A DNA stretch of 61,465 nt, the filler included, from Candidatus Desantisbacteria bacterium CG1_02_49_89 (GTDB lineage Bacteria > Desantisbacteria > UBA1551): the NCBI GenBank assembly GCA_001871075.1. It is 5 parts of 5 records of this genome, joined end to end, with 100 filler letters (N's around TTAATTAATTAA, not from the genome) between each part and the next. Parts side by side here need not be neighbours in the genome. Positions count along the whole stretch, not along the records: positions 1 to 19,665 come from MNUP01000129.1; 4 more parts are not named here. One strand, written 5' to 3'. Shown piece by piece: positions 1-53,987 of this stretch. Under the pieces are notes generated by a model. The model saw only the letters and a program-made list of their open reading frames with translations. It had not been told where the DNA came from and made no database searches. Position 1 is the stretch's first letter, and the number at the start of each line of letters is the position of its first letter. Both the position numbers and the translations under genes were made by a program.

Positions 1-240
1 GGCTTCCCCCATAAGATACGGGGTCGCCCTCCTCACCCTTTAATGTTTACGAAGCTACACCTGGATTCACTTTCGTTGCAACCCGTCTTTTGCATCGCCC
101 GCCCGAGGCGGACTTTGTCAAGCCGCTTAGAAAAGAAAGATTGCTCCTTCCTTTCTGGCTTCTTGCTACCAGACTGCCAAATCTTATCTGGGTCAGTTAT
201 TTGCAACTGACTGGATTAGCCACAGCTTAGCTTGGCGCTC
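1..240 (-). mobile_element. Group II intron, 5' end (domain I); remainder lies beyond the window edge
   Basis: The minus strand begins GAGCGCCAAG (variant of GUGYG). It continues with domain-I hallmarks in the expected order: hairpin GTCAGTT-GCAAAT-AACTGAC, a GCAA-loop stem followed by TAAGCG, AACGAAAGTGAATCC, GTAGCTTCGTAA, and GGCGACCCC...GGGGAAGCC. Confidence 0.8.
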
Positions 241-2302
241 ATCTTATCACCATGAATTTCCCTGTTTTTTTCTCACCCGCGGGATTCGTGATGCTGTAAA
301 TATAAACGCCGCCCGCGACGATCTCCTCTTCCGCATTCCTGCCGTCCCACTCCTTTGTCTCGCCAGTGCCGGTCTTATCGAGCCGGCGGACGAATTCGCC
401 TGCTATGCTGTAGATATTTATCGTCGCGTTATCCGTGAGAAACCCGAATGTCATGTTCCCGGTCGCGGGATTGTAAGGCACGGGATAGACTATTACGTTT
501 GAAATGCTGCGGCAATACTGGCAGCCGGATCTTGAAAAATTGAAGTATTCGTCCTGCGCCTGGACCCAGTATTCCGTGGTCTGGGAAGGAAGCGTTGCCC
601 AGATCCAGTCACCCGAAACCTCCATTTTTTTTACCGACCAGGTCCCTTCCGCCCTGTAAAACGCAAAAGCTGCCTTTACCCCGCCTGAGCTCGCCCTTAT
701 CCTGACCCCGCTGTTATCCCTGATCACCGTGGACATAGAAATCCCCGGCGGCGTGTAATCGGTGATATTAAGGCCCGCGGAATATGCGCCCCAGTCAGTG
801 CAGTGCTCGAAAATGTGCGTCATCTGGGAAATGTCATCGCCTTTTACCATGATCTTTGACGCGTCGTCAGTGCCGATGTAAAGAACCTGCTCGCCCGCGG
901 ATTTGTGGATGACCGGGATAAGCTTCCAGTCATAGCACATGACCCTTGACCCCACCGCGTCCACGGCTGCCGGGTCTTCTCCGGCGAGAACGCACTGCCT
1001 CCAGCAGGTCTTGCCAGGCCAGGCAAAATTATCGTATTCGCTCGCCTGCACAGCGTCCACTACGTTGAAATACCGCCTCTGCCTGGATGTCCGCAGGATC
1101 CCGTCCCTGTCCGCGTAAAGCACTATCTTGTTCATATCGGCTATGGAACGCCAGAAAATATCGTTCCCGAAGTAGATTTCGTTCCCGGAAGCCCCTGCTT
1201 TCGTATGCGGCAGTCTTGCATTGGTAAAACCGGTCCAGTTTGTTGTACTGGGCATAGTGCTGCCAACGTGGTTCTTTATGCAAAGCGTGTTTATCATTCC
1301 CTGGTGGCATTTCATCTTGGCAACATTTATTATCACGGGGACAGCGAGCTCATGATCGCTTACCGCGTACCAGGCCATAGCCTGGCCTTTGGGATTTACA
1401 CCGTAACAGTCAGTCTCAAAGAAATACGGGTTGTTGTAATTCGGCAGGTCTAAATTGGAGTAGCCGCTGCCCGCGAAAGAGCTGTATGAACCCATATATA
1501 TCCATCTCCAGTGGTTAAGGTCTCCCAGCCCTATCGTCCGCAGGATGATGCCCGGGTTCCTTACCTGCAGGACCTGCATCATTGTCTCGTATCCGGTCTT
1601 TCCCATTATATCATAGGCGCTGTCACAGCCGGTGCATCCCTGGCTTCCGTCGCCCACCAGGACGGCCGAAGCTCCGGCCGCAATGCACATATCAACAACA
1701 GGCCGGACAACAGCCGGATGCGTGTAGGTGACGGCGGTGCATGCCATCAGGTTCACTTTTATGAGCACGGTATCACCCGGGTTCACCAGGGCATCAAGCG
1801 GGTTTGAATGCGTGCCCAAACCAAGGTCCTCAACTGCCTGCCAAACAAGACCGTAAACCGGGTTATCGTTTTCATCGTAAGGCGGGGTCTCTCCGTAATA
1901 CGCGGAAGGTTCGTACCTGAAGCTCACCTCGGTAAACGCGCTTGCGGGCAAAGAAGACCGGGTGTGATCCATAGCGGGGATCGTCTGGCCGGCGCTGCCC
2001 GCGCTGCCCGCGTAAACGCTTCCGGGCCTGCCACGGAAACGCAGACCGAAAACAACCGCTAAAACCGCAAGGCAGGCGAAAACCGCCGTCCAGAAATGCC
2101 TGCTGAAGAAGATCTTTTTTATCTGTTTCCACAGCGAGATAAAAATAGGTATGATAAAAACGGTAATAAACCACCCGGATTGGGCTGCGGCAACCCTCTG
2201 GCACGGGTAAACGATCCTTGACGGTTTTACCCCTACCCTCAGGATAAACCATGCAAGACATGCCAGGCTGAACCAGAAGTAATTGCTCCATTTATTTTTC
2301 AT
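239..2302 (-). CDS. DUF362-domain membrane/secreted protein with C-terminal FlgD/T9SS-A-like Ig domain
   Basis: DUF362-like motifs GDTVLIKVN, THPAVV, INVAKMKCH and CIKNHVG; N-terminal hydrophobic segments; C-terminal YPVPYNP...IYSIAGE..VR...WDGRN...GVYIY. Confidence 0.7.
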   Translation of the reverse strand: MKNKWSNYFWFSLACLAWFILRVGVKPSRIVYPCQRVAAAQSGWFITVFIIPIFISLWKQIKKIFFSRHFWTAVFACLAVLAVVFGLRFRGRPGSVYAGSAGSAGQTIPAMDHTRSSLPASAFTEVSFRYEPSAYYGETPPYDENDNPVYGLVWQAVEDLGLGTHSNPLDALVNPGDTVLIKVNLMACTAVTYTHPAVVRPVVDMCIAAGASAVLVGDGSQGCTGCDSAYDIMGKTGYETMMQVLQVRNPGIILRTIGLGDLNHWRWIYMGSYSSFAGSGYSNLDLPNYNNPYFFETDCYGVNPKGQAMAWYAVSDHELAVPVIINVAKMKCHQGMINTLCIKNHVGSTMPSTTNWTGFTNARLPHTKAGASGNEIYFGNDIFWRSIADMNKIVLYADRDGILRTSRQRRYFNVVDAVQASEYDNFAWPGKTCWRQCVLAGEDPAAVDAVGSRVMCYDWKLIPVIHKSAGEQVLYIGTDDASKIMVKGDDISQMTHIFEHCTDWGAYSAGLNITDYTPPGISMSTVIRDNSGVRIRASSGGVKAAFAFYRAEGTWSVKKMEVSGDWIWATLPSQTTEYWVQAQDEYFNFSRSGCQYCRSISNVIVYPVPYNPATGNMTFGFLTDNATINIYSIAGEFVRRLDKTGTGETKEWDGRNAEEEIVAGGVYIYSITNPAGEKKTGKFMVIR

Positions 2303-2400: not shown

Positions 2401-4056
2401 TTATTCTTCCCCGTCCATTATTATAACTTCCACCCTGCGGTTCTGCGCCCGCCCTATCTTGGTATTGTTTACGGCGATCGGGTCTTTGGAGCCGCAGCCC
2501 TTCACGGTTATGCGCTCTTTTGAAACGCCTTTGTTAACAAGGTACTTGACAACCGATTCTCCCCTTTTTACCGAAAGCTTCAGGTTGTACTTACTGGGGC
2601 CAGTGGAATCAGAATGCCCTTCAAGGGATATTTTGTTCTCAACGAATATTTTTATTATTCCGGCAAGTTTATCCAGTGTCCTGCGCGCCGCAGGGGTAAG
2701 ATCCGCGTTCCCGAACTCAAAAAATATGTCCGCGCCCGTCTGGATGGGAAGCCTTGTTAAAGTTTCACCCCCGACAAAAACCTTCTCAGCCCTGGCACTC
2801 TCTAACTTGGCTTTTACGAGCTCCTCTATCCTCGCGTCCATCTCTTTAATGACCGATTCGGCTTTCAGCCTTGCTTGCTTCTCCTTCTCCGCGGAGGATT
2901 CTGCTTCCTTTCTCTTCTTCTCGGATTCATCCTGCATCTTTCTCAGCTTTTCCCCATCTGTTGTCTTCTTGGCAAGCTCAGCCTCCAGCTGCGCTATGCG
3001 CTTATCAAGCTCCTTAACAAGAGCTTCCGCTTTCAGTCTTGCTTCCTTCTCCTTTTTTACTTCTCCGGTTAATTTTACCTTTTCTGCTTCAGCCTGCTTG
3101 GCCTTTAATATAGCTGTTTCCTGATCTTTACTTTTGGCAGCCGAAGGTGGCACTGGCGAAGATGGCACAACGGCAGTTGTAACCGTCTTCTTTTCAGCCT
3201 CAAGTTTCGCCGCAGCGTCAGCGGTCACTTTTTTCTTTGCCTCTGCTTCCGCAGCTGCTTTCTTTTCAGCTTCGAGTTTTGCAGCGGCATCCTGAGCAGC
3301 CTTAAGTTCAGCCGCTTTCTTGGCTTCGGCTGCTGCATCCTGTGCCGCCTTCAATTCGGCGGCTTTCTTTGCCTCTGCTGCTGCTCCAGCTTTCGCAGCG
3401 GTTTCCTGCGCCGCTTTAAGCTCAGCAGCTTTCTTTTCAGCCTCAAGTTTCACCGCAGCGTCAGCGGTCACTTTTTTCTTTGCCTCTGCTTCCGCAGCTG
3501 CTTTCTTTTCAACTTCGAGTTTTGCAGCGGCATCCTGAGCAGCCTTAAGTTCAGCCGCTTTCTTGGCTTCGGCTTCCGCATCTGCTTTCTTTTTTGTTTC
3601 ATCTGTCGGAGGTACAACACTAGCCGGGGTAGAAGCAGGAACTGCCTCCTGTACCTCTACCTCCTGGCCAGAACCTGTTATAGTAACTATGATCGAATTG
3701 CCGGTCTTGCCCGCATTGATCTGCAGGGAAGAAACGTCCGAAGTCTCGATAAGAATACGCCCTATCATAACAGGTCTTACTGAAGCCTGTGTTACTGTTA
3801 TATACTTTAAAATGTCCTTCCCAACGTTCGTGGAACTTTCCTTGACCTTCAGGCCTCGGACCTCTATTAATACGCCGGAAGGAATCGTTGAAACTGACTG
3901 CTTGAACTGGGCGTCTCCGCTCATGACTATCTCAACAGTCGCGTTTCCGTCTGACTCGTTTGTCTTGACTTCCTTAAGCTCTGCGCAGTCAGCGGTTGCT
4001 GAGAAGAATGCTGCAGTCAGTGCCAGTAGTATTAAATGGACTATTCGCTTTTTCAT
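2401..4056 (-). CDS. OmpA-family peptidoglycan-binding protein with AMIN-like N-terminus and TolA-like Ala/Lys/Glu repeats
   Basis: Signal peptide; AEAKKAAELKAAQ repeats; C-terminal OmpA motifs FFEFG, EGHSDSTG, YNLKLS..RG.SV and GRAQNRRVEV. Confidence 0.85.
   Translation of the reverse strand: MKKRIVHLILLALTAAFFSATADCAELKEVKTNESDGNATVEIVMSGDAQFKQSVSTIPSGVLIEVRGLKVKESSTNVGKDILKYITVTQASVRPVMIGRILIETSDVSSLQINAGKTGNSIIVTITGSGQEVEVQEAVPASTPASVVPPTDETKKKADAEAEAKKAAELKAAQDAAAKLEVEKKAAAEAEAKKKVTADAAVKLEAEKKAAELKAAQETAAKAGAAAEAKKAAELKAAQDAAAEAKKAAELKAAQDAAAKLEAEKKAAAEAEAKKKVTADAAAKLEAEKKTVTTAVVPSSPVPPSAAKSKDQETAILKAKQAEAEKVKLTGEVKKEKEARLKAEALVKELDKRIAQLEAELAKKTTDGEKLRKMQDESEKKRKEAESSAEKEKQARLKAESVIKEMDARIEELVKAKLESARAEKVFVGGETLTRLPIQTGADIFFEFGNADLTPAARRTLDKLAGIIKIFVENKISLEGHSDSTGPSKYNLKLSVKRGESVVKYLVNKGVSKERITVKGCGSKDPIAVNNTKIGRAQNRRVEVIIMDGEE
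3188..3574. repeat. 144-nt internal direct repeat (3188-3331 and 3431-3574)
   Basis: The copies are 243 nt apart and differ at two positions by eye. Confidence 0.9.
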
Positions 4057-4291: not shown

Positions 4292-5080
4292 TTAAGCCGT
4301 GGAAAGCTGCCCTGCCCTTTTCCACGCCGCCTTAACAGCCTTGTCCAATATGCTTCCCAGGCGGTATTTTTTTAAGACTTTAAGGGCTTCTGCCGTTGTA
4401 CCCTTCTTTGACGAAACCATATCGCGCAGTTCCGCAGGCTCTTTACCTGTTGTTTCCAGCAGCGCAACAGCACCCTTCGCGGTTTGGATCGCCAGATTCT
4501 TGCATGTTTGTTTGTCCAATCCAAGATCGCAGGCCGATCTGATCAGATGCCCGATCATCTCGAAGAAATAAGCCGGGCCGCTCCCGGAAAGCGCGGTCAC
4601 GGCATTAATATGTTTTTCAGCGACCGAAAAAACTTTCCCGGACCTGCGGAAAATTTCCTTCACTATAAACTCGTCTTTCCTGCTTGCACGCTTTCCCCTG
4701 CAGACCGCTGCCGCTCCCCGGCCGGCGATCAGGGCTATATTAGGCATAACCCTGACCACCCTTGCTTCACCTGCGGCTTTTTCAATAAAGCGGGTGCTTA
4801 TACCCGCAGCTATGGAAACAAACAGGTGCCTTGCCGTCACCGCGTCTTTTATGTTTACCAGCACTTCCTTCATCTCCTGCGGTTTTATCGCAAGTATCAC
4901 GATATTGCTTTTACTGACCAGTTCCAAGCTGTCTTTTGCAGGCGTTATCCCTGATCTTGAAGCGGCACGCTTTGCGGCAGGCCTTATGTCATAGCCCATG
5001 AGCGAAGATCCCTTCAGGCTTCTGCCGATAGCCATGCCCATTTTCCCCAGCCCTATTATACCGATCTTCCCCAGCTTCAT
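4292..5080 (-). CDS. proC: Pyrroline-5-carboxylate reductase
   Basis: GIIGLGKMG, AIKPQ, SIAAG, RVMPN, ALSGSGPAYF, VSSKKGTT. Start moved to ATG 5080 because the upstream extension is only a translated repeat. Confidence 0.95.
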   Translation of the reverse strand: MKLGKIGIIGLGKMGMAIGRSLKGSSLMGYDIRPAAKRAASRSGITPAKDSLELVSKSNIVILAIKPQEMKEVLVNIKDAVTARHLFVSIAAGISTRFIEKAAGEARVVRVMPNIALIAGRGAAAVCRGKRASRKDEFIVKEIFRRSGKVFSVAEKHINAVTALSGSGPAYFFEMIGHLIRSACDLGLDKQTCKNLAIQTAKGAVALLETTGKEPAELRDMVSSKKGTTAEALKVLKKYRLGSILDKAVKAAWKRAGQLSTA

Positions 5081-5093
5081 GTTAACCCCTATC

Positions 5094-5198
5094 GAATTAT
5101 GAATTATGAATGATGAGTTATGAATCAAAATCAAGGAGTTTTATTTAAATTCAATTCCATGTTGTTGACTCATAATTCATAACTCATAACTCATAATT
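5094..5198. repeat. ATGAATT-heptamer inverted-arm element, copy 1
   Basis: (GAATTAT)-like x4, a spacer, then (ATAATTC/ATAACTC) x4 inverted. Confidence 0.85.
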
Positions 5199-5214
5199 AA
5201 TTTCCTGTTTCTTT

Positions 5215-6360: not shown

Positions 6361-6384
6361 ATTCTCCCTCCTTTTTTGAAATTT

Positions 6385-6533
6385 GATTACGGTGATTTTC
6401 AACTGATGATTACGATGATTATTAAATAATGATTACGGTGATTATTAGAATAATGATCACAGCGATAAGTGCAACGATAGCAGTGATTTTAAAATTTATA
6501 ATCACTGTAATCATTCTTTAAATCACTGTAATC
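6385..6533. repeat. GATTACRGTGATT spaced array with inverted AATCACTGTAATC copies
   Basis: About five forward motifs at roughly 20-24-nt spacing, then two reverse-complement motifs. Confidence 0.85.
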
Positions 6534-6541
6534 GGTATTTA

Positions 6542-7762: not shown

Positions 7763-7939
7763 ATTCCCCTCCTTTTTTAAGATGACGATTACAGTGATTA
7801 TTTAAAAATGATTACGGTGATTATTAACTACTGACGATCTTTGCTTCGCAACATTCTTTGTGGGTCACGTCGATAAACGACGAATTACGGTGATTATACA
7901 ATGATTCTTTACTTCTCAGCATGCTTTATATTATTAAAA

Positions 7940-9682: not shown

Positions 9683-9691
9683 ACAACTCCT

Positions 9692-9803
9692 AATTATGAA
9701 TTATAAATTATGAATTATGAATCAACAACAAGGAGTTTTATCTTAATTCAGGGCAAAAGCCCTGATTCCTTCACTCATAATTCATAAATCATAATTCATA
9801 ATT
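9692..9803. repeat. ATGAATT-heptamer inverted-arm element, copy 2
   Basis: Same arms as copy 1 and a related spacer (CAAGGAGTTTTAT); extra hairpin TCAGGGC-AAAA-GCCCTGA at 9748-9765. Confidence 0.85.
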
Positions 9804-9807
9804 GAAT

Positions 9808-10725
9808 TTAAAATTCACCTAAAAGCTGCACTTCCAGCTCAAGCTTCACGCCGAAATGCTCGTAAACCCTTTTCTGCATTTTTTCAATAAGGCTCATGAC
9901 ATCAGCCGCACTGGCTTTCCCGCGGTTGAGGATGAAGTTCGCGTGTTTCTTCGAAACAACAGCCCCGCCGGCCTTCTCGCCCTTCAGCCCTGCCAGATCG
10001 ATCAGCAGGCCTGCAGAGCAACCGTTCGGGTTCTTGAAAATGCATCCCGCGGAAGGCTTATCCATAGGATGTATCTTTTTCCTTTTAGCCCACGCAGCCG
10101 ATATGCTCTTTTTCACCGCGTAAGGCGACGCTTTTTTAAGCCCTCCCAAAACCGCTCCGGTTACGATGCCTTTCATTTTCTTAAGACTGCTGTCCCTGTA
10201 TGAAAAAACCAGCCTGCCCGCGGGTATCCTTCTTGTCCTGCCGCTGTAATCCATGAAGTCCACTGATCTCACTGTTTTTCCTATTGCCATCCGCGGAGAA
10301 CCGGCATTTCCGATAAGCGCTCCTCCAAGGGTTCCCGGTATTCCTGCCATGAACTCAAGCCCGCTCAACCCCCTGCCTGCAAGAGCGCTCAGAAGCCCGG
10401 ACACTGAAATTGAAGCGCCCACTTCAACCGTGCTTCCCCTGATCTTCACCTGGTCCAGCGCCTTTCCGGCCTTTACAACAACGCCCCTTATGCCTTTGTC
10501 TCCGACCAGTATGTTCGTGCCGCTGCCGGCTATGTACAGCGGCAGTCCGGATCTTTTCGCGGCACTGAATATCCTGCGCAGCTCGTTAATATCTTCGGCT
10601 ATGATGAACACGTCTGCCGGCCCGCCTATCCTGAAGGACGTATGCTTTGACATAGGCTCGTTAAAAAGCACCCGGCTTTTTTTCAGGATCTTCCCGATAT
10701 CTTTAAAAACAAATTGCTTTTTCAT
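9808..10725 (-). CDS. murB: UDP-N-acetylenolpyruvoylglucosamine reductase
   Basis: HTSFRIGGPA, GSGTNILV, GLEFMAGIPGTLGG, PSAGCIFKNP, HANFI, LELEV. Confidence 0.97.
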   Translation of the reverse strand: MKKQFVFKDIGKILKKSRVLFNEPMSKHTSFRIGGPADVFIIAEDINELRRIFSAAKRSGLPLYIAGSGTNILVGDKGIRGVVVKAGKALDQVKIRGSTVEVGASISVSGLLSALAGRGLSGLEFMAGIPGTLGGALIGNAGSPRMAIGKTVRSVDFMDYSGRTRRIPAGRLVFSYRDSSLKKMKGIVTGAVLGGLKKASPYAVKKSISAAWAKRKKIHPMDKPSAGCIFKNPNGCSAGLLIDLAGLKGEKAGGAVVSKKHANFILNRGKASAADVMSLIEKMQKRVYEHFGVKLELEVQLLGEF

Positions 10726-13456: not shown

Positions 13457-13482
13457 TTTAACCCCGATTTACCGCTGAAATC

Positions 13483-13580
13483 AATTATGAGTTATGAATT
13501 ATGAGTTATGAGTGAAGGAATTTTATTTAAATGAAAATCCATGCCGTTGATTCATAATTCATCATTCATAATTCATAATT
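13483..13580. repeat. ATGAATT-heptamer inverted-arm element, copy 3 (spacer opposite in orientation to copy 2)
   Basis: Arms as in copies 1 and 2; spacer GTGAAGGAAT is the reverse complement of ATTCCTTCAC in copy 2. Confidence 0.85.
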
Positions 13581-13589
13581 AGAAATTTT

Positions 13590-14966
13590 TTATAATTTAC
13601 TCACTTCGTCCTTGAAGATCCTGCCCCGCTCTTTGTAATCCCTGAACATATCGAAACTGCTGCATCCGGGAGACAGCACCACCTCATCCCCTGGCTCTGC
13701 TGATTCGGCCGCGGCCCTTACCGCTTCCCCCATGTCCGCTGCCTTCATTATAATGCCTCGCAGGGAGTTGCTGTAACCCAGGAGCATCTTCTCTATGGCG
13801 TCTTTCGCCTCTCCGATAAGGATTATTTTCTTTGCTTTCTCTTCCGCGGGTTTTCCGAGTATCCCGAAATCCCCGCCCTTATACCTGCCCCCTGCTATCA
13901 ATACAAGCGATTTTTTTCCCGGCGTCCCGAGGCTTTCAAGCGCTTTGAGCACGGCGTCGACCGTTGTTCCCTTCGAATCGTTTATGTACCTGACGCCTTT
14001 TTTATCCCCTGCCGGCTCCATCCTGTGTTCAAGCCCTGTGAATTCCCTGAGCGCTTTGGAGGCGGCGTCAGCATGTATCCCAAAAACCATTGCCATCGCG
14101 GTTGCCGCAAGCGCGTTCTCAAGGTTATGCTGGCCTATAAGCTTTATCTGCGAGATCTCGCAGACCGTCTGCTCCGTGCCGATCCTGCTTATTATCTTTC
14201 CGCCCCTTACGAACACGCCTGTCTGCGGTTCGCTCTTTCTTGAAAAAACAACCTTTCTTGCCTTTATGCCCTCTTCGACCAGTGCCGCGGTGGCGGGGCA
14301 GTCCCCGTTGATCACCGCGAAGTCGTCCGCATGCTGGTTCTCGAATATCCTCGCTTTCGCCTTAATGTATTCTTCCATGCCCGGATACCTGTCAAGATGG
14401 TTCGCGTTTATGTTCAGCAAAGCCGCGATCTTCGGCCTGAAATCTTTGATGGTCTCGAGCTGGAAACTGCTTATCTCCGCCACAACAGCTTCAGGCTGCG
14501 CCCCGGTGTATACCGGTCCCGCGAATTTGGTCAGCGGCTCACCGATATTACCCCCGACTATCACTTTCTTGCCGCCTGCCTTAAGCATTTCTCCTGTCAG
14601 GACCGTGGTTGTTGTCTTGCCGTTTGAACCTGTTATCGCTATTATAGGGCTTGATATGAACAAGAAGGCAAGCTCGATCTCTCCTATTACCGGGATCCCT
14701 TTTGCCGCTACTTCCTTCAGTATCGGTATACCGGAAGGTATTCCCGGGCTAATGACCACGGCGTCAGAATCAAGGACCTGGCGGCTGTGCCCCCCGAACT
14801 CTGTCCTGATACCCGCGGGGAGCCCGGCCGGCAGCTTCCCCAGTTCCTCCTTCTTCTTCGTATCGCTCAAAAGCACGTCTGCACCGGCCTTTACCAGAAG
14901 AACGGAAGAATAGATGCCGCTTATCCCCATGCCCAGAACGCTTATTTTTTTCCCTTTAAGATCCAT
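13590..14966 (-). CDS. murD: UDP-N-acetylmuramoyl-L-alanine--D-glutamate ligase
   Basis: SPGIP, ITGSNGKTTT, GGNIG, EISSFQL, HLDRY, NDSKGT, LSPGCSSFD. Confidence 0.97.
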   Translation of the reverse strand: MDLKGKKISVLGMGISGIYSSVLLVKAGADVLLSDTKKKEELGKLPAGLPAGIRTEFGGHSRQVLDSDAVVISPGIPSGIPILKEVAAKGIPVIGEIELAFLFISSPIIAITGSNGKTTTTVLTGEMLKAGGKKVIVGGNIGEPLTKFAGPVYTGAQPEAVVAEISSFQLETIKDFRPKIAALLNINANHLDRYPGMEEYIKAKARIFENQHADDFAVINGDCPATAALVEEGIKARKVVFSRKSEPQTGVFVRGGKIISRIGTEQTVCEISQIKLIGQHNLENALAATAMAMVFGIHADAASKALREFTGLEHRMEPAGDKKGVRYINDSKGTTVDAVLKALESLGTPGKKSLVLIAGGRYKGGDFGILGKPAEEKAKKIILIGEAKDAIEKMLLGYSNSLRGIIMKAADMGEAVRAAAESAEPGDEVVLSPGCSSFDMFRDYKERGRIFKDEVSKL

Positions 14967-19665: not shown

Positions 19666-19765
19666 NNNNNNNNNNNNNNNNNNNNNNNNNNNNNNNNNNN
19701 NNNNNNNNNTTAATTAATTAANNNNNNNNNNNNNNNNNNNNNNNNNNNNNNNNNNNNNNNNNNNN
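19666..19765. other. Artificial contig spacer
   Basis: N-run with central TTAATTAATTAA. Confidence 0.99.
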
Positions 19766-27700: not shown

Positions 27701-27800
27701 NNNNNNNNNNNNNNNNNNNNNNNNNNNNNNNNNNNNNNNNNNNNTTAATTAATTAANNNNNNNNNNNNNNNNNNNNNNNNNNNNNNNNNNNNNNNNNNNN
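27701..27800. other. Artificial contig spacer
   Basis: N-run with central TTAATTAATTAA. Confidence 0.99.
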
Positions 27801-28054
27801 TGGAGCCGTTTGGAACCATTCAAAAAATTCGCCCAGATGATTGAGCGCCACTGGGATGACATCGTCAGTTACTGTCATCCCGACAACAAAGTATCACTCG
27901 GATTTATGGAAGGACTGAATAACAAAATCCGTGTAATGCAGCGCCGGGCATATGGTATCACAGATACAGAGTACCTGATGCTTAAAGTATTAACTTCGTT
28001 TATAAAGGAACCCTAAAATGACCAATTTTTACGCACAAGAAACCCAGAAGACCC
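27801..28054 (+). mobile_element. ISL3-family insertion sequence, right end (transposase C-terminus 27801-28016)
   Basis: HWDDIVSY...GFMEGLNNKIRVMQRRAYG is the ISL3 C-terminal motif; the end ...GAAACCCAGAAGACCC resembles ISL3 inverted repeats. Confidence 0.88.
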
Positions 28055-33593: not shown

Positions 33594-33693
33594 NNNNNNN
33601 NNNNNNNNNNNNNNNNNNNNNNNNNNNNNNNNNNNNNTTAATTAATTAANNNNNNNNNNNNNNNNNNNNNNNNNNNNNNNNNNNNNNNNNNNN
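33594..33693. other. Artificial contig spacer
   Basis: N-run with central TTAATTAATTAA. Confidence 0.99.
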
Positions 33694-38922: not shown

Positions 38923-39177
38923 ATGGCTCACGTAAAAGGACAAGGAAGTTCCAGGAACGGAAGGGACAGCGCAGGGCAAAGGCTGGGCTTGAAGGCTTCC
39001 GGCGGACAGCTGGTGAACGCCGGAGCTATTATAATCAGGCAGCATGGCACGGTTTTCATGCCGGGATTTAACGTAAAAAAGGCAAAGGACAACAGCCTTT
39101 TCGCGACAGCGCCAGGGATAGTCAGGTTTGAGAGGATCACAAGGGATAAGAAAAAGATAAGCGTCCGTCCCCAATAA
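38923..39177 (+). CDS. rpmA: 50S ribosomal protein L27
   Basis: [22 protein letters not shown]. Confidence 0.98.
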
Positions 39178-39268
39178 AGAATGATTACAGTGATTTTAAA
39201 TTAGATTACAGTGATTAAAGCTTTATCACCGTAATCATTTTTAAATAATCACCGTAATCGGATTTTAA

Positions 39269-40309
39269 ATGTTTATTGATGAAGCTAAGATATTTTTGAA
39301 AGCCGGGGATGGCGGCAATGGCTGCGTCAGTTTCAGGCGCGAGAAAAACATACCTAAGGGAGGTCCTGACGGGGGCAACGGGGGCAACGGCGGTGATATA
39401 ATCATTGAATCCAGCCTTGACCTTGCGACCCTGATAGATTTTCAGTTCAGGTCCCATTTTAAGTCGAAGCCCGGTGAATACGGAAGGGGAAGCAATGAAT
39501 TCGGGAAGAACGGGGAACATCTGGTCATAAAGGTGCCTGTCGGCACTGTTGTAAGAAAGATCGCAAGCGGCCACTGGCCGGTTCCCAGTTCAGAAATAAC
39601 GAACGAGATAATAGCGGATCTGACAAAGGCGGGAGAAAGGATAATCGTTGCGAAGGGAGGGCAGGGGGGCAGGGGCAACACTATTTTCAAGAGCTCGACA
39701 AACCAGACGCCCAGAACCGCCGAGGAGGGAACACCGGGCGAAGAAATAACCCTTAAACTGGAACTGAAGCTGATAGCGGACGTTGGCCTTGTGGGTTACC
39801 CGAACGCGGGCAAGTCCACGCTTATTTCAAAGCTCTCAAACGCAAGGCCCAAAATAGCGCCTTACCCGTTCACTACGCTGGAGCCGTACCTTGGTATCGT
39901 AAGGCGGGAAAACGAAAGCTTTGTGCTTGCGGACCTGCCGGGGCTCATTGAGGGCGCGCACAAGGGCAAAGGCCTGGGAGACAAGTTCCTGAAGCACGCT
40001 GAACGGACAAGAATAATACTGCATGTTGTTGATATGTGCGGTTATGAGGGGAAAGACCCCGCATCAAGCTTCCGCACCATAAACGGGGAAATGGAATCAT
40101 ACAATCCTGATTTTATGAAAAAACCGCAGATAGTGGCCGCGAACAAGACTGACCTTGAAGACGCGCGCGGGAACCTGGATGCTTTCACGAAAGAAGTCTC
40201 AGGAAAGGGATATAAGGTCATACCCATATCAGGCATTACCGGAGAAGGCCTGGACACGCTTAAACACGAATTATTTAAGCTGCTTAGCCAGGAGAAGGTG
40301 AAAGTTTAA
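39269..40309 (+). CDS. obgE: GTPase Obg/CgtA
   Basis: GGPDGGNGG, GYPNAGKST, YPFTT, DLPG, NKTD. Confidence 0.97.
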   Translation: MFIDEAKIFLKAGDGGNGCVSFRREKNIPKGGPDGGNGGNGGDIIIESSLDLATLIDFQFRSHFKSKPGEYGRGSNEFGKNGEHLVIKVPVGTVVRKIASGHWPVPSSEITNEIIADLTKAGERIIVAKGGQGGRGNTIFKSSTNQTPRTAEEGTPGEEITLKLELKLIADVGLVGYPNAGKSTLISKLSNARPKIAPYPFTTLEPYLGIVRRENESFVLADLPGLIEGAHKGKGLGDKFLKHAERTRIILHVVDMCGYEGKDPASSFRTINGEMESYNPDFMKKPQIVAANKTDLEDARGNLDAFTKEVSGKGYKVIPISGITGEGLDTLKHELFKLLSQEKVKV

Positions 40310-40389: not shown

Positions 40390-41502
40390 ATGACGGATAA
40401 TATAAAAAGGATCGTGATAAAACTGGGAAGCTCCGTGATCTTGAAAGAGAACGGGGAGCCGAATTCCGCCTGCCTGAAGGCGCTTGTCCAGGAGATGGCT
40501 GAACTGCGCAGGAACAAGGAACTGATAATAGTCACGTCAGGCGCTATAGGGATCGGTAAAACGCTGCTTGGGGTCAGCAGGCCGAAGGACCTATCGGAGA
40601 AACAGGCGCTTGCCGCTGTCGGGCAGGCGCACCTGATACAGATCTATGAAAACCTTTTTTCCCAATACGGCATAAAGGTGGGCCAGGTCCTGCTTACCAG
40701 GGAAGACCTTCAGGGAAGGCACAGGTACCTTAACGCGCGCAATACGTTTCTGAGCCTGCTTGAGCACGGCGTGGTGCCGGTTATCAACGAAAACGACACC
40801 GTCGCGGTAGATGAGATAAAATTCGGCGACAACGACACCCTCTCAGCCATCGTCGCTTCCAAGATGGACGCGGACCTGCTGGTGATACTGTCGGACATTG
40901 AGGGGGTTTACAGGGACCCGGATAAAAGAGAAAAGGGCGTTATCAGGGAAGTGGTTGATGACGTCGCGAACATAGAGGAGTCTGCGACGGGTTCAAGCGG
41001 GAAATCCAGGTTCGGGACAGGCGGAATTACCACAAAGATCGAGGCGGCTAAGATCATGATGTCAAGCGGGGTCCCGATGGTCGTTGCCAGGGGAGACCAT
41101 CCGCACATACTCGCAAGGATCATAACCGAGTTTTCCGGAGCTAAAACGACAGGCACGTGGTTTATTTCCTCAAAAAAAATGGCGTCCCGCAAGCGCTGGA
41201 TCGCTTTTAACGCTGAGATAAAGGGCAGCGTGACTATTGACGAAGGAGCCGCAAAAGCGCTGAAGGAGGACGGAAAGAGCCTTCTGCCTTCAGGAATAAA
41301 GGATGTACAGGGGAGTTTCGAGCAGGGAGATGCGGTGAGTGTCAAGGACAGCGCCGGCAGAGAGATCGCGAAAGGCGTGGTGAACTATGCGGCCGATGAA
41401 GTGAAAAAAATTGCCGGTAAAAAAACCGCGGATATAGAGCAGGCGCTGGGCCGCAAGGATTACGACGAAGTGATCCATCGGGACAACCTGGTTATACTAT
41501 GA
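40390..41502 (+). CDS. proB: Glutamate 5-kinase
   Basis: IKLGSS, QALAAVGQ, INENDTV, FGDND, GTGG; C-terminal PUA domain ending IHRDNL. Confidence 0.97.
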   Translation: MTDNIKRIVIKLGSSVILKENGEPNSACLKALVQEMAELRRNKELIIVTSGAIGIGKTLLGVSRPKDLSEKQALAAVGQAHLIQIYENLFSQYGIKVGQVLLTREDLQGRHRYLNARNTFLSLLEHGVVPVINENDTVAVDEIKFGDNDTLSAIVASKMDADLLVILSDIEGVYRDPDKREKGVIREVVDDVANIEESATGSSGKSRFGTGGITTKIEAAKIMMSSGVPMVVARGDHPHILARIITEFSGAKTTGTWFISSKKMASRKRWIAFNAEIKGSVTIDEGAAKALKEDGKSLLPSGIKDVQGSFEQGDAVSVKDSAGREIAKGVVNYAADEVKKIAGKKTADIEQALGRKDYDEVIHRDNLVIL

Positions 41503-41598
41503 TTACAGTGATTTTGAGAAGATGATTACAATGATTATTCAAATTTAAATAATCACCGTAATCTCAGTTATAATCACCGTAATCCCAAAAGGTATTTT

Positions 41599-53887: not shown

Positions 53888-53987
53888 NNNNNNNNNNNNN
53901 NNNNNNNNNNNNNNNNNNNNNNNNNNNNNNNTTAATTAATTAANNNNNNNNNNNNNNNNNNNNNNNNNNNNNNNNNNNNNNNNNNNN
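53888..53987. other. Artificial contig spacer
   Basis: N-run with central TTAATTAATTAA. Confidence 0.99.

What the first reader, a model, noticed from the sequence alone, without database searches (positions are those of the whole stretch)
1..247. Group II intron with non-canonical GAGCG 5' end inserted inside a stop codon
Seen: on the minus strand the gene ends ...ATAAGA-T|GA, and the GA is also the start of GAGCGCCAAG, followed by domain-I motifs. The intron therefore completes the TGA and leaves the protein intact even unspliced. The last 7 exon nt (ATAAGAT, 247-241) are exactly complementary to a hairpin loop in the intron (ATCTTAT, 17-11), and an exon-identical GATAAGAT also occurs at 188-181. 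Known: group II introns normally start GUGYG and recognise targets through EBS1/IBS1. Inference: a GA-starting intron that targets T of stop codons would insert silently. The loop may not be the true EBS1, which could lie beyond the window.
Basis: partly seen in the sequence, partly recalled or inferred. Interest (0 to 1): 0.7.

Follow-up and report, generated by a model that had tools for sequence, protein, structure and literature searches.

The report
Mini group II intron splitting stop codons
The window's first 240 bases are the start of a small, multi-copy self-splicing intron with no enzyme gene of its own, which sits inside the stop codon of a secreted-protein gene and rebuilds that stop with its own first two bases; it is a new variation on a strategy already described for other bacterial introns.

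Summary
On the minus strand a 687-aa DUF362 + T9SS-sorting-domain ORF ends AGA-T|GA. From G240 onward the sequence is group II intron domain I (Rfam RF02003, 66 bits).

Public contigs and read graphs fix the 5' end at the G of GAGCG. Five contigs at four further or identical sites share 100% identical intron sequence that begins there.

One contig (L003) holds the whole element. It is 717 nt, has domains I-VI including domain V/VI (RF00029), and has no RT ORF. The shared 718th base (A) is the first 3'-exon base (calibrated), so the target is T^A of a TAA/TAG stop and the intron's GA regenerates TGA.

The loop AUCUUAT (window 17-11) is the true EBS1, shown by comparison with 7 unrelated introns of the same structural class.

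Three of five loci are stop codons of diverged homologous genes (...GK[FI]MVI[RK]). Two are ectopic sites with C at -1. So it homes to one gene-family end, not to stop codons in general.

The closest precedent is the proteobacterial IIB1 groEL stop-codon introns (PMC12584367). This element lacks their defining features, so it is a new variant of a known kind.

The parts
1..240 (-). First 240 nt (most of domain I) of a 717-nt ORF-less group II intron; the contig ends inside the repeat
   Evidence: Identical to nt 1-240 of the complete copy in L003. The read-graph unitig at 25-28x depth covers exactly 1-240 and branches at 241.
236..240 (-). Intron 5' terminus GAGCG (A in place of the consensus U at position 2)
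   Evidence: First base shared by all five public contigs and the window. One other GAGCG among 16 readable 5' ends of the same Rfam class.
239..241 (-). Composite stop codon TGA: T is the last exon base, GA are the first two intron bases
241..247 (-). IBS1 (AUAAGAU), the last 7 exon nt
   Evidence: 7/7 Watson-Crick pairs with EBS1.
11..17 (-). EBS1 (AUCUUAU), intron nt 224-230, in the 9-nt loop GUAUCUUAU of the hairpin at window 23-7
   Evidence: Coincides with the 4-bp-stem/9-nt-loop hairpin of RF02005. The homologous loop pairs with the exon from -1 in 6 of 7 unrelated introns, in the same register.
71..209 (-). Rfam group-II-D1D4-4 (RF02003) full-model match
   Evidence: 66.3 bits. In the complete copy RF02005 scores 72.2 bits over the wider region.
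40..45 (-). Candidate EBS2 (CAUUAA, intron nt 196-201) in the internal loop 5' of the EBS1 hairpin; weak
   Evidence: Pairs 4-6 bp with U-N-A-U-G in all four distinct sites (and reading of the flanks). By eye, the equivalent internal loop complements the exon in 3 of 7 sample introns.
251..255 (-). Candidate IBS2 (UCAUG, exon -15..-11); weak
   Evidence: 4 of 5 pairs with the candidate EBS2.
181..188 (-). Internal copy of the exon-end 8-mer GAUAAGAU in the first domain I hairpin loop; probably coincidental
   Evidence: It overlaps the class-conserved loop motif.
242..2302 (-). Host gene: 687-aa protein with DUF362 and a C-terminal T9SS-type sorting domain, ending ...GKFMVIR
   Evidence: Homologues.

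Best explanation
Window 240..1 (minus strand) is the 5' third of a 717-nt ORF-less group II intron. The element has domains I-VI and no reverse transcriptase gene. It is present in several identical copies in a groundwater bacterial lineage.

Its preferred DNA target is the 3' end of a family of DUF362 + T9SS-sorting-domain genes, which encode ...G-K-[F/I]-M-V-I-[R/K]-stop. The target is recognised mainly by a 7-nt EBS1 loop pairing with the last exon bases AUAAGAU, and possibly by an upstream EBS2/IBS2 pair.

The intron lies between the first and second base of a TA(A/G) stop codon. Because it starts with GA rather than GU, it rebuilds a TGA stop. The host protein is therefore unchanged whether or not the intron splices.

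What is shown: identity as a group II intron, both boundaries, the lack of an ORF, EBS1, the multiple sites, and the regenerated stop.

What is inferred: that it spread recently by reverse splicing (retrohoming plus occasional ectopic insertion), that this used an RT supplied in trans by a related intron, that the original stop was TAA or TAG, and that A at position 2 is advantageous.
For: Group II identity:
- RF02003 in the window.
- In the complete copy L003: RF02005 at 72 bits plus a full-model RF00029 domain V/VI hit at 50 bits.
- Domain V hairpin and domain VI with a bulged A.
- Fold z-score -5.5.

5' boundary:
- Five metagenome contigs share 100% identical sequence from the G of GAGCG and differ upstream.
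- In three DNA runs the 25-28x unitig ends exactly at window 240, and the next base branches. In run X8 the branch with T has depth 35 and the other has depth 20.

3' boundary:
- L003 and the X18 unitig both stop after 718 nt.
- RF00029 ends at nt 717.
- In a calibration intron with an independently known boundary (G134, with an empty site in L041), RF00029 ends on the last intron base and the copies share one further exon base.

No ORF:
- The longest ORF is 63 aa, with no Pfam or NCBIfam hit and no longer homologue.

EBS1:
- 7/7 pairs with the window exon, 6/7 with L004 and L006, and 5/7 with L002 and L003.
- Same loop and register in 6 of 7 unrelated class members, against 0 of 54 non-self pairs reaching 6 bp.

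Target family:
- The window (= L005), L004 and L006 genes are homologues, 53-55% aa identity to the window's, and all have DUF362 + CTD.
- L004 and L006 are 84% nt identical in the exon but 100% in the intron.
- All three end T|GA.
- The consensus of three further Logan flanks reads ...GNIMIIR-T|GA on the intron strand (agreement only 0.71).

Natural C-terminus.

Multi-copy: intron depth 25-28x against about 5-8x for the host gene.
Against: - No 3' exon was recovered anywhere. The TA(A/G) stop and the spliced product are therefore inferred from a single shared base (A) and from the protein's natural end.
- No RT was found in the window or in L002-L006 (tblastn with 7 queries), and no full-length parent was found, so mobilisation in trans is unproven.
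- Splicing was not observed. The only RNA-library contig covers intron nt 15-215 and could be DNA carry-over.
- Two of five loci (L002, L003) have C at -1, which mismatches EBS1, and are not at stop codons.
- The three stop-codon sites are one homologous gene family, so they are effectively one homing site rather than independent evidence for stop-codon preference.
- A canonical GU start would add only four residues (C-A-P-S) before an in-frame TAA, so selection for A2 is not compelling.
- The EBS2 assignment is weak.
Confidence: 0.82

Rival explanations
1. The stop-codon position is incidental. The intron has one ordinary sequence-specific homing site that happens to span the end of this gene family. 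It persists there because insertions outside coding sequence are harmless. A at position 2 is a neutral variant with no role in keeping the stop.
For: - All three stop-codon sites are homologous genes.
- 2 of 5 loci are not at stops.
- GAGCG also occurs in an unrelated intron (L008) that is not at an obvious stop.
- With GU the ORF would run on only four codons (the frame read in L002).
Against: A2 is rare: 1 of 16 in the class sample. Yet it is exactly the base needed to rebuild a stop at this site. The same logic, with the intron's first base regenerating the stop, is documented for the groEL introns (PMC12584367, passages read).
Confidence: 0.45
2. The copies are immobile relics spread by segmental duplication or recombination, or inherited vertically at an orthologous site, rather than by retromobility.
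For: No RT was found. L002 carries about 30 nt of CTD-end-like sequence upstream of the intron in an otherwise unrelated intergenic context, which could reflect a carried-over flank.
Against: - Intron sequence is 100% identical, while the host genes are 84% (L004 vs L006) and about 65% identical in nucleotides.
- Similarity stops sharply at G1 in every copy.
- The Rhs site shares only the IBS-like bases.
- All sites are in the sense orientation of the upstream gene.
Confidence: 0.1
3. The real 5' splice site is elsewhere, for example a canonical GUGYG further in or upstream, and GAGCG is exon or part of a conserved target.
For: GUGYG is the consensus: 15 of 16 readable 5' ends in the class sample are GTGCG or GTGTG.
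Against: - All copies become identical exactly at the G of GAGCG, with T or C before it.
- GAGCG lies 38 nt before the RF02005 model start. In the sample introns this distance is 32-37 nt.
- EBS1 pairs with the 7 nt immediately upstream, in the class-typical register.
Confidence: 0.03

Closest known systems
Specialised subgroup IIB1 introns at start/stop codons, e.g. Avi.groEL and EcKTE56.groEL (Gomes et al. 2025, PMC12584367: abstract and passages read. Michel et al. 2007 Biochimie and Ferat et al. 2003 Mol Microbiol were seen only as cited there.)
   Same: A group II intron inserted inside a termination codon, in the sense strand at the very end of a gene. The intron's own first base(s) regenerate a stop, so the protein is unchanged. 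The target site is specific and conserved across diverged hosts.
   Different: - The groEL introns sit between stop positions 2 and 3 (UAA to UAG, using G1). This one sits between positions 1 and 2 and needs both G1 and the non-consensus A2.
[quoted passage not shown] This element has neither.
- No sequence similarity to E. coli genomes.
- A different best Rfam domain I model from the pO157 E. coli intron.
- The host gene is a secreted DUF362/T9SS-CTD protein in an uncultivated groundwater lineage, not a proteobacterial housekeeping gene.
- Ectopic copies exist, whereas EcKTE56.groEL gave none in the reported assays.
ORF-less bacterial group II introns (Simon et al. 2008 RNA, and the Trichodesmium dnaN introns served by the RIR intron's RT; both seen only as cited or summarised in PMC12584367)
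   Same: A complete ribozyme (domains I-VI) without an RT gene, present in several closely related copies. Presumably dependent on a related intron's RT/maturase in trans.
   Different: The helper intron has not been found here. The copies lie at gene ends or stop codons rather than inside housekeeping ORFs.
Ordinary RF02005/RF02003-class bacterial group II introns (sample from 151 genomes of an unrelated phylum)
   Same: Same domain I architecture, the same EBS1 hairpin and register, one shared 3'-exon base among copies (IBS3-like), and multi-copy behaviour.
   Different: Most start GTGCG and carry an RT ORF (about 2 kb). This one is 717 nt, starts GAGCG, and scores only 66-72 bits against these models, so it is a distant member.

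Membership tests
Group II intron (ribozyme) | Domain I architecture recognised by a covariance model | tested here: met
   RF02003 at 66.3 bits in the window. RF02005 at 72.2 bits, full model, in the complete copy.
Group II intron (ribozyme) | Domain V hairpin and domain VI with a bulged branch-point A near the 3' end | tested here: met
   RF00029 full model, 50 bits, L003 8925-9020. The local fold shows D5 and a D6 helix with A711 bulged, 6 nt before the end.
Group II intron (ribozyme) | 5' GUGYG and 3' AY termini | tested here: inconclusive
   The 3' end is ...CUAU (AY met). The 5' end is GAGCG: 4 of 5 consensus positions, with A for U at position 2. The same variant was seen in 1 of 16 class members. 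From memory, unverified here (searches found nothing), yeast aI5-gamma also begins GAGCG.
Group II intron (ribozyme) | EBS1 loop in domain I complementary to the last bases of the 5' exon | tested here: met
   7/7 pairs. Loop and register validated in 6 of 7 unrelated class members.
Group II intron (ribozyme) | Self-splicing or maturase-assisted splicing | not testable with these tools
   No exon-exon or lariat junction could be examined, because no 3' exon was recovered.
Mobile (autonomous) group II intron | Intron-encoded reverse transcriptase/maturase in domain IV | tested here: not met
   717 nt in total. The longest ORF is 63 aa, with no Pfam or NCBIfam hit and no longer homologue.
Specialised IIB1 start/stop-codon clade (groEL introns) | Insertion within or next to a termination codon, with a stop regenerated | tested here: met
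   T|GA at three homologous gene ends. The position within the codon differs (1|2 rather than 2|3).
Specialised IIB1 start/stop-codon clade (groEL introns) | Large (300-700 nt) 5'-subterminal insertion, subdomain Ia, at the base of domain I (PMC12584367) | tested here: not met
   Only 38 nt lie between G1 and the start of the domain I model, as in ordinary introns (32-37 nt). The whole of domain I is about 330 nt.
Specialised IIB1 start/stop-codon clade (groEL introns) | CL1-lineage RT with an endonuclease domain | tested here: not met
   No RT ORF.
Specialised IIB1 start/stop-codon clade (groEL introns) | IIB1 ribozyme close to EcI5-type introns | tested here: inconclusive
   No blastn match in 5,426 E. 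coli genomes. The RT-bearing intron of pO157 (which I recall, unverified, to be EcI5) matches RF02012, whereas this element matches RF02005/RF02003. Only the best model per clan is reported, so a weaker RF02012 match cannot be excluded.
ORF-less bacterial group II introns | Full ribozyme without an ORF, plus a related ORF-bearing intron in the same genome to supply the RT | tested here: inconclusive
   The first half is met. No RT was found in 61 kb of window plus about 29 kb of related contigs. A diverged relative of the intron's 5' end exists in the same runs (3 mismatches over window 195-244, contigs up to 2041 nt) but could not be read.
Group IIC (terminator-targeting) introns | Insertion just after a terminator or attC-like stem-loop, with a very short IBS1 | tested here: not met
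   The upstream flank is coding sequence with a 7-bp IBS1. The sites share primary sequence, not a hairpin.

The most novel reading that the evidence does not exclude
This may be an independent lineage of tiny, RT-less group II introns that has converged on the groEL-intron strategy of hiding inside a stop codon, but by a different route. It splits UA(A/G) after the U. It has fixed the otherwise rare A at intron position 2, so that G1-A2 rebuilds UGA. It uses the conserved last beta-strand coding sequence of a T9SS-sorted protein family (...GK[FI]MVI[RK]-stop) as a dispersed landing pad across diverged genes and genomes, while being mobilised in trans by an unseen helper.
Probability: 0.3. Interest if true: 0.65.

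Novelty: new variant of a known kind. Interest (0 to 1): 0.5.

Why it matters
Group II introns that hide in stop codons were known from one proteobacterial IIB1 clade with a peculiar extra subdomain, and how they colonise such sites is an open question (PMC12584367).

A second, structurally different example is informative in three ways:
- It lacks that subdomain and the RT.
- It cuts the codon at another position.
- It relies on a non-consensus base in the catalytically important 5' pentamer.

This would show that the strategy evolved more than once. It also gives a compact 717-nt ribozyme in which the cost or benefit of A2 versus U2 can be tested directly.

In practical terms, it explains a contig break and warns annotators that the TGA of this gene is a chimera of exon and intron.

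Tried and rejected
- **Own genome.** None is held for this window.
- **Genome-contig scan.** The 20-mer gave only L001, a chance match with no intron homology and no Rfam hit.
- **Plasmids.** The 247-nt fragment gave nothing. The full element gave only about 90 nt of D5/D6-level similarity to Bacillus and other plasmid introns.
- **E. coli genomes.** No match.
- **Viral contigs.** Neither the 5' nor the 3' end pattern was found.
- **3' exon.** No contig end in the window or in L002-L006 starts with the intron's 3' end, so no 3' exon was obtained.
- **RT remnant.** I suspected that the 63-aa ORF in domain IV was the stump of an RT gene. Pfam and NCBIfam gave nothing and the search for longer proteins gave nothing, so I dropped the idea. 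The 35-aa frame with CEGKPHAQFDE is only the translation of domain V.
- **The ...TGAGCGCCA 9-mer at window ~27842.** It lies at the end of a transposase-like ORF with no RNA hit, so it is chance.
- **Literature on GAGCG.** Searches for GAGCG with 'group II intron' (passages were primers or unrelated) and for the recalled aI5-gamma 5' sequence gave nothing usable.
- **RNA run X24.** One 202-nt contig covers only intron nt 15-215. This is not evidence of transcription or splicing.
- **Intron-less allele.** No contig bridging an intron-less allele of the host gene was seen in the four runs laid. Absence there proves nothing.
- **Host taxonomy.** Not determined.
- **Supplements.** The supplementary files of PMC12584367 (its Figure S1 alignment of groEL introns) were not seen. 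They might show 5' ends and domain I features relevant to the comparison.
Full report
**What is in the window**

Read on the minus strand, a 687-aa ORF (2302..239) ends GTG ATA AGA TGA. It encodes a DUF362 domain followed by a T9SS-type C-terminal sorting domain. The sorting-domain profiles align to the very last residue: PorZ model 669-757 of 757 against residues 599-687, and TIGR04183 1-71 of 72. A homologue from another 28-kb contig (P0002, 56% identity) ends ...GKIAVIK at the same aligned position. The ORF therefore stops at its natural end.

From window 240 downward the sequence is group II intron domain I: RF02003 at 209-71, full model, 66.3 bits, E 2.4e-12. The window is a scaffold of five contigs joined by N/TTAATTAATTAA linkers, so position 1 is a true contig end inside the intron.

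**Boundaries and copy number**

No genome is held for the window. Twenty-three groundwater or aquifer DNA runs hold the stretch. I laid the contigs of three DNA runs and one RNA run on window 1-900.
- In each DNA run a single unitig of depth 25-28 covers 1-240 and stops exactly at 240. The host gene has depth of about 5-8.
- After 240 the graph branches. In X8, a 31-mer with the window's base at 241 has depth 35, and one with another base has depth 20.
- In each DNA run, three other contigs match only 211/212-244 or 195-244 and then diverge.

A metagenome scan with the first 22 intron bases returned five contigs. All are 100% identical to each other and to the window over whatever intron sequence they hold (114-718 nt). 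All diverge upstream of the G of GAGCG. The intron therefore begins GAGCG.

**The whole element**

L003 carries 718 nt after the junction and then ends.
- RF02005 (group-II-D1D4-6) matches at 72.2 bits, full model.
- RF00029 (domains V/VI) matches at 50 bits, full model, ending one base before the contig end.
- The X18 unitig is also 718 nt.
- The RNA folds far better than shuffles (z = -5.5).
- Domain V and a domain VI helix with a bulged A are visible.
- There is no room for an RT. The longest ORF is 63 aa, with no Pfam or NCBIfam match and no longer homologue in the 5.8-billion-protein set.
- A second frame that looks RT-like is merely domain V translated.

To decide whether base 718 is intron or exon, I calibrated on a multi-copy intron of genome G134.
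- Its copies share 1991 nt.
- An unoccupied target in L041 shows that the intron is 1990 nt (ending ...CUAC) and that the shared extra base is the first exon base.
- RF00029 ends exactly on nt 1990.

By the same reading my element is 717 nt (ending ...CUAU, which fits the AY rule), and the shared A is exon +1. The insertion point is therefore T^A. At the end of an ORF that must stop there, this means a TAA or TAG stop split after its first base, with the intron's G1-A2 restoring TGA. The 3' exon itself was never recovered, so this step is inferred.

**Target recognition**

I sampled RF02005-class introns from 151 genomes of an unrelated phylum and read their alignments. In 6 of 7 with a recognisable hairpin, the loop pairs, from its third base, with the exon from -1 for 5-6 bp. 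Among 54 non-self loop/exon pairs, none reached 6 and three reached 5. The exception was L008, with 3 bp. L015 was dropped because no hairpin was found by my pattern.

My loop GU|AUCUUAU uses the same register. It pairs 7/7 with the window exon, 6/7 with L004 and L006, and 5/7 with L002 and L003. It is the true EBS1.

A candidate EBS2 (CAUUAA, nt 196-201) can pair with U-N-A-U-G 3-5 nt upstream of IBS1 in all four distinct sites. By eye, the homologous internal loop complements the exon in only 3 of 7 sample introns, so I rate this as weak.

**Where the copies sit**

There are five loci.
- **Window (= L005).** ...GKFMVIR-T|GA.
- **L004 and L006.** ...GKIMVIK-T|GA. Their genes are DUF362 + CTD homologues of the window's gene, at 53-55% aa identity to it. 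They are 84% nt identical to each other while carrying identical intron sequence.
- **L002.** C|GA, in an intergenic spot 63 nt after a nucleotidyltransferase/HEPN-like gene pair. About 30 nt resemble a CTD gene end (...ATGKIMVIR) but no ORF lies behind them.
- **L003.** C|GA, inside the C-terminal tip of an Rhs-repeat protein, about 40 codons after the Rhs core motif.

So 3 of 5 loci are stop codons, and all three belong to one gene family. The other 2 of 5 are ectopic. The consensus of the three extra flanks, read on the intron strand, gives ...EKKLGNIMIIR-T|GA. This suggests more sites of the same kind, but agreement among those contigs was only 0.71.

L002 and L003 share this genome's odd short intergenic repeats with the window, so the ectopic copies lie in the same or a close lineage. 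In every locus the intron is in the sense orientation of the upstream gene.

**How unusual GAGCG is**

19 loci of the class sample matched from model position 1. Of these, 16 had a readable pentamer at the expected distance: 14 GTGCG, 1 GTGTG and 1 GAGCG (L008). Three were unreadable. A2 is therefore rare but natural.

I recall that yeast aI5-gamma also starts GAGCG, but could not verify this.

**Comparison with what is known**

I read the abstract and passages of Gomes et al. 2025 (PMC12584367). They describe a monophyletic IIB1 clade inserted in or beside start or stop codons of proteobacterial housekeeping genes.
- The groEL introns sit between stop positions 2 and 3, turning UAA into UAG with the intron's G.
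- All members carry a 300-700-nt subdomain Ia.
- All members encode CL1 RTs with an endonuclease domain.

My element shares the strategy but fails those defining features.
- G1 is 38 nt from the domain I model start, as in ordinary introns.
- It has no ORF.
- It has no similarity to E. coli genomes.
- It matches a different best domain I model from the pO157 intron (RF02012).

I therefore do not file it in that clade. It works like those introns but is a separate, ORF-less variant.

No helper RT was found in the sequence I hold. A diverged relative of the intron's 5' end exists in the same runs and is the obvious candidate, but I could not read it.

**Verdict**

The corrections are that the element is a complete 717-nt RT-less intron, and that its target is one gene-family end rather than stop codons in general. 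Insertion into a stop codon with regeneration of the stop has a published precedent. Whether A2 is adaptive remains open.

Noticed in passing
window 19666-19765, 27701-27800, 33594-33693, 53888-53987: The window is not one contiguous piece. Five contigs are joined by N runs around TTAATTAATTAA linkers, so adjacency across these points is not biological.
   Followed up: partly
window ~5076-5204, 9685-9808, 13477-13599; also 6373-6541, 7775-7826, 39175-39270, 41489-41585: Families of short AT-rich intergenic repeats built from 7-8-nt periodic units (e.g. ...ATTATGAATTATGAAT... and ...GATTACGGTGATTAT...). They recur in direct and inverted orientation and are shared with contigs L002 and L003. Their function is unknown.
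   Followed up: partly
window 2401-4056 (minus): A 551-aa protein with a long Ala/Lys/Glu-rich internally repeated middle (AEAKKAAELKAAQDAAAKLEAEKK...) and an OmpA-like C-terminal end, by eye. It gives the tandem DNA repeats at 3188-3582.
   Followed up: no
window 27801-28015 (plus): This contig piece starts inside the C-terminal end of a transposase-like ORF (...FAQMIERHWDDIVSYCH...), so another repeat probably broke the assembly here. Its TGAGCGCCA 9-mer resembling the intron junction is chance.
   Followed up: yes
L003 5745-8303: An Rhs/YD-repeat protein whose C-terminal tip, just after the Rhs-associated core motif, is interrupted by a copy of the same intron. Unspliced, the ORF runs 15 codons into the intron.
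   Followed up: partly
L002 12565-13577: A MntA-like nucleotidyltransferase (weak NCBIfam hit) followed by a 131-aa HEPN-like ORF lies just upstream of an intergenic intron copy. That copy is preceded by a roughly 30-nt relic resembling a sorting-domain gene end.
   Followed up: partly
L002 and L003 junctions (-5 and -1): Both ectopic sites deviate from the EBS1 complement at the same two positions (U at -5, C at -1: AUUAG[G/A]C). This might point to a variant EBS1 in a past donor copy, although L003's resident intron has the standard loop.
   Followed up: no
L008 (G042:C280), about 35 nt upstream of the RF02005 match: An intron in an unrelated phylum that also starts GAGCG. Its near-identical relatives in L007 start GTGCG. 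Its EBS1 loop pairs only 3 bp with its exon.
   Followed up: partly
L007 1444-1666 and 2315-2534; L038 206-2195 and 2230 onward: Closely spaced or tandem group II introns in sample genomes. In L007 two domain I matches lie 871 nt apart. In G134 two 1990-nt copies are separated by a 33-nt duplicated target, and L041 holds an empty target copy right after an occupied one.
   Followed up: partly
window 195-244, runs X8/X18/X22: A diverged relative of the intron's first 46 nt (3 mismatches over 50 nt). It has an AGAT-like flank and then unrelated downstream sequence, on contigs up to 2041 nt. It may be the RT-bearing parent, but it could not be read.
   Followed up: no
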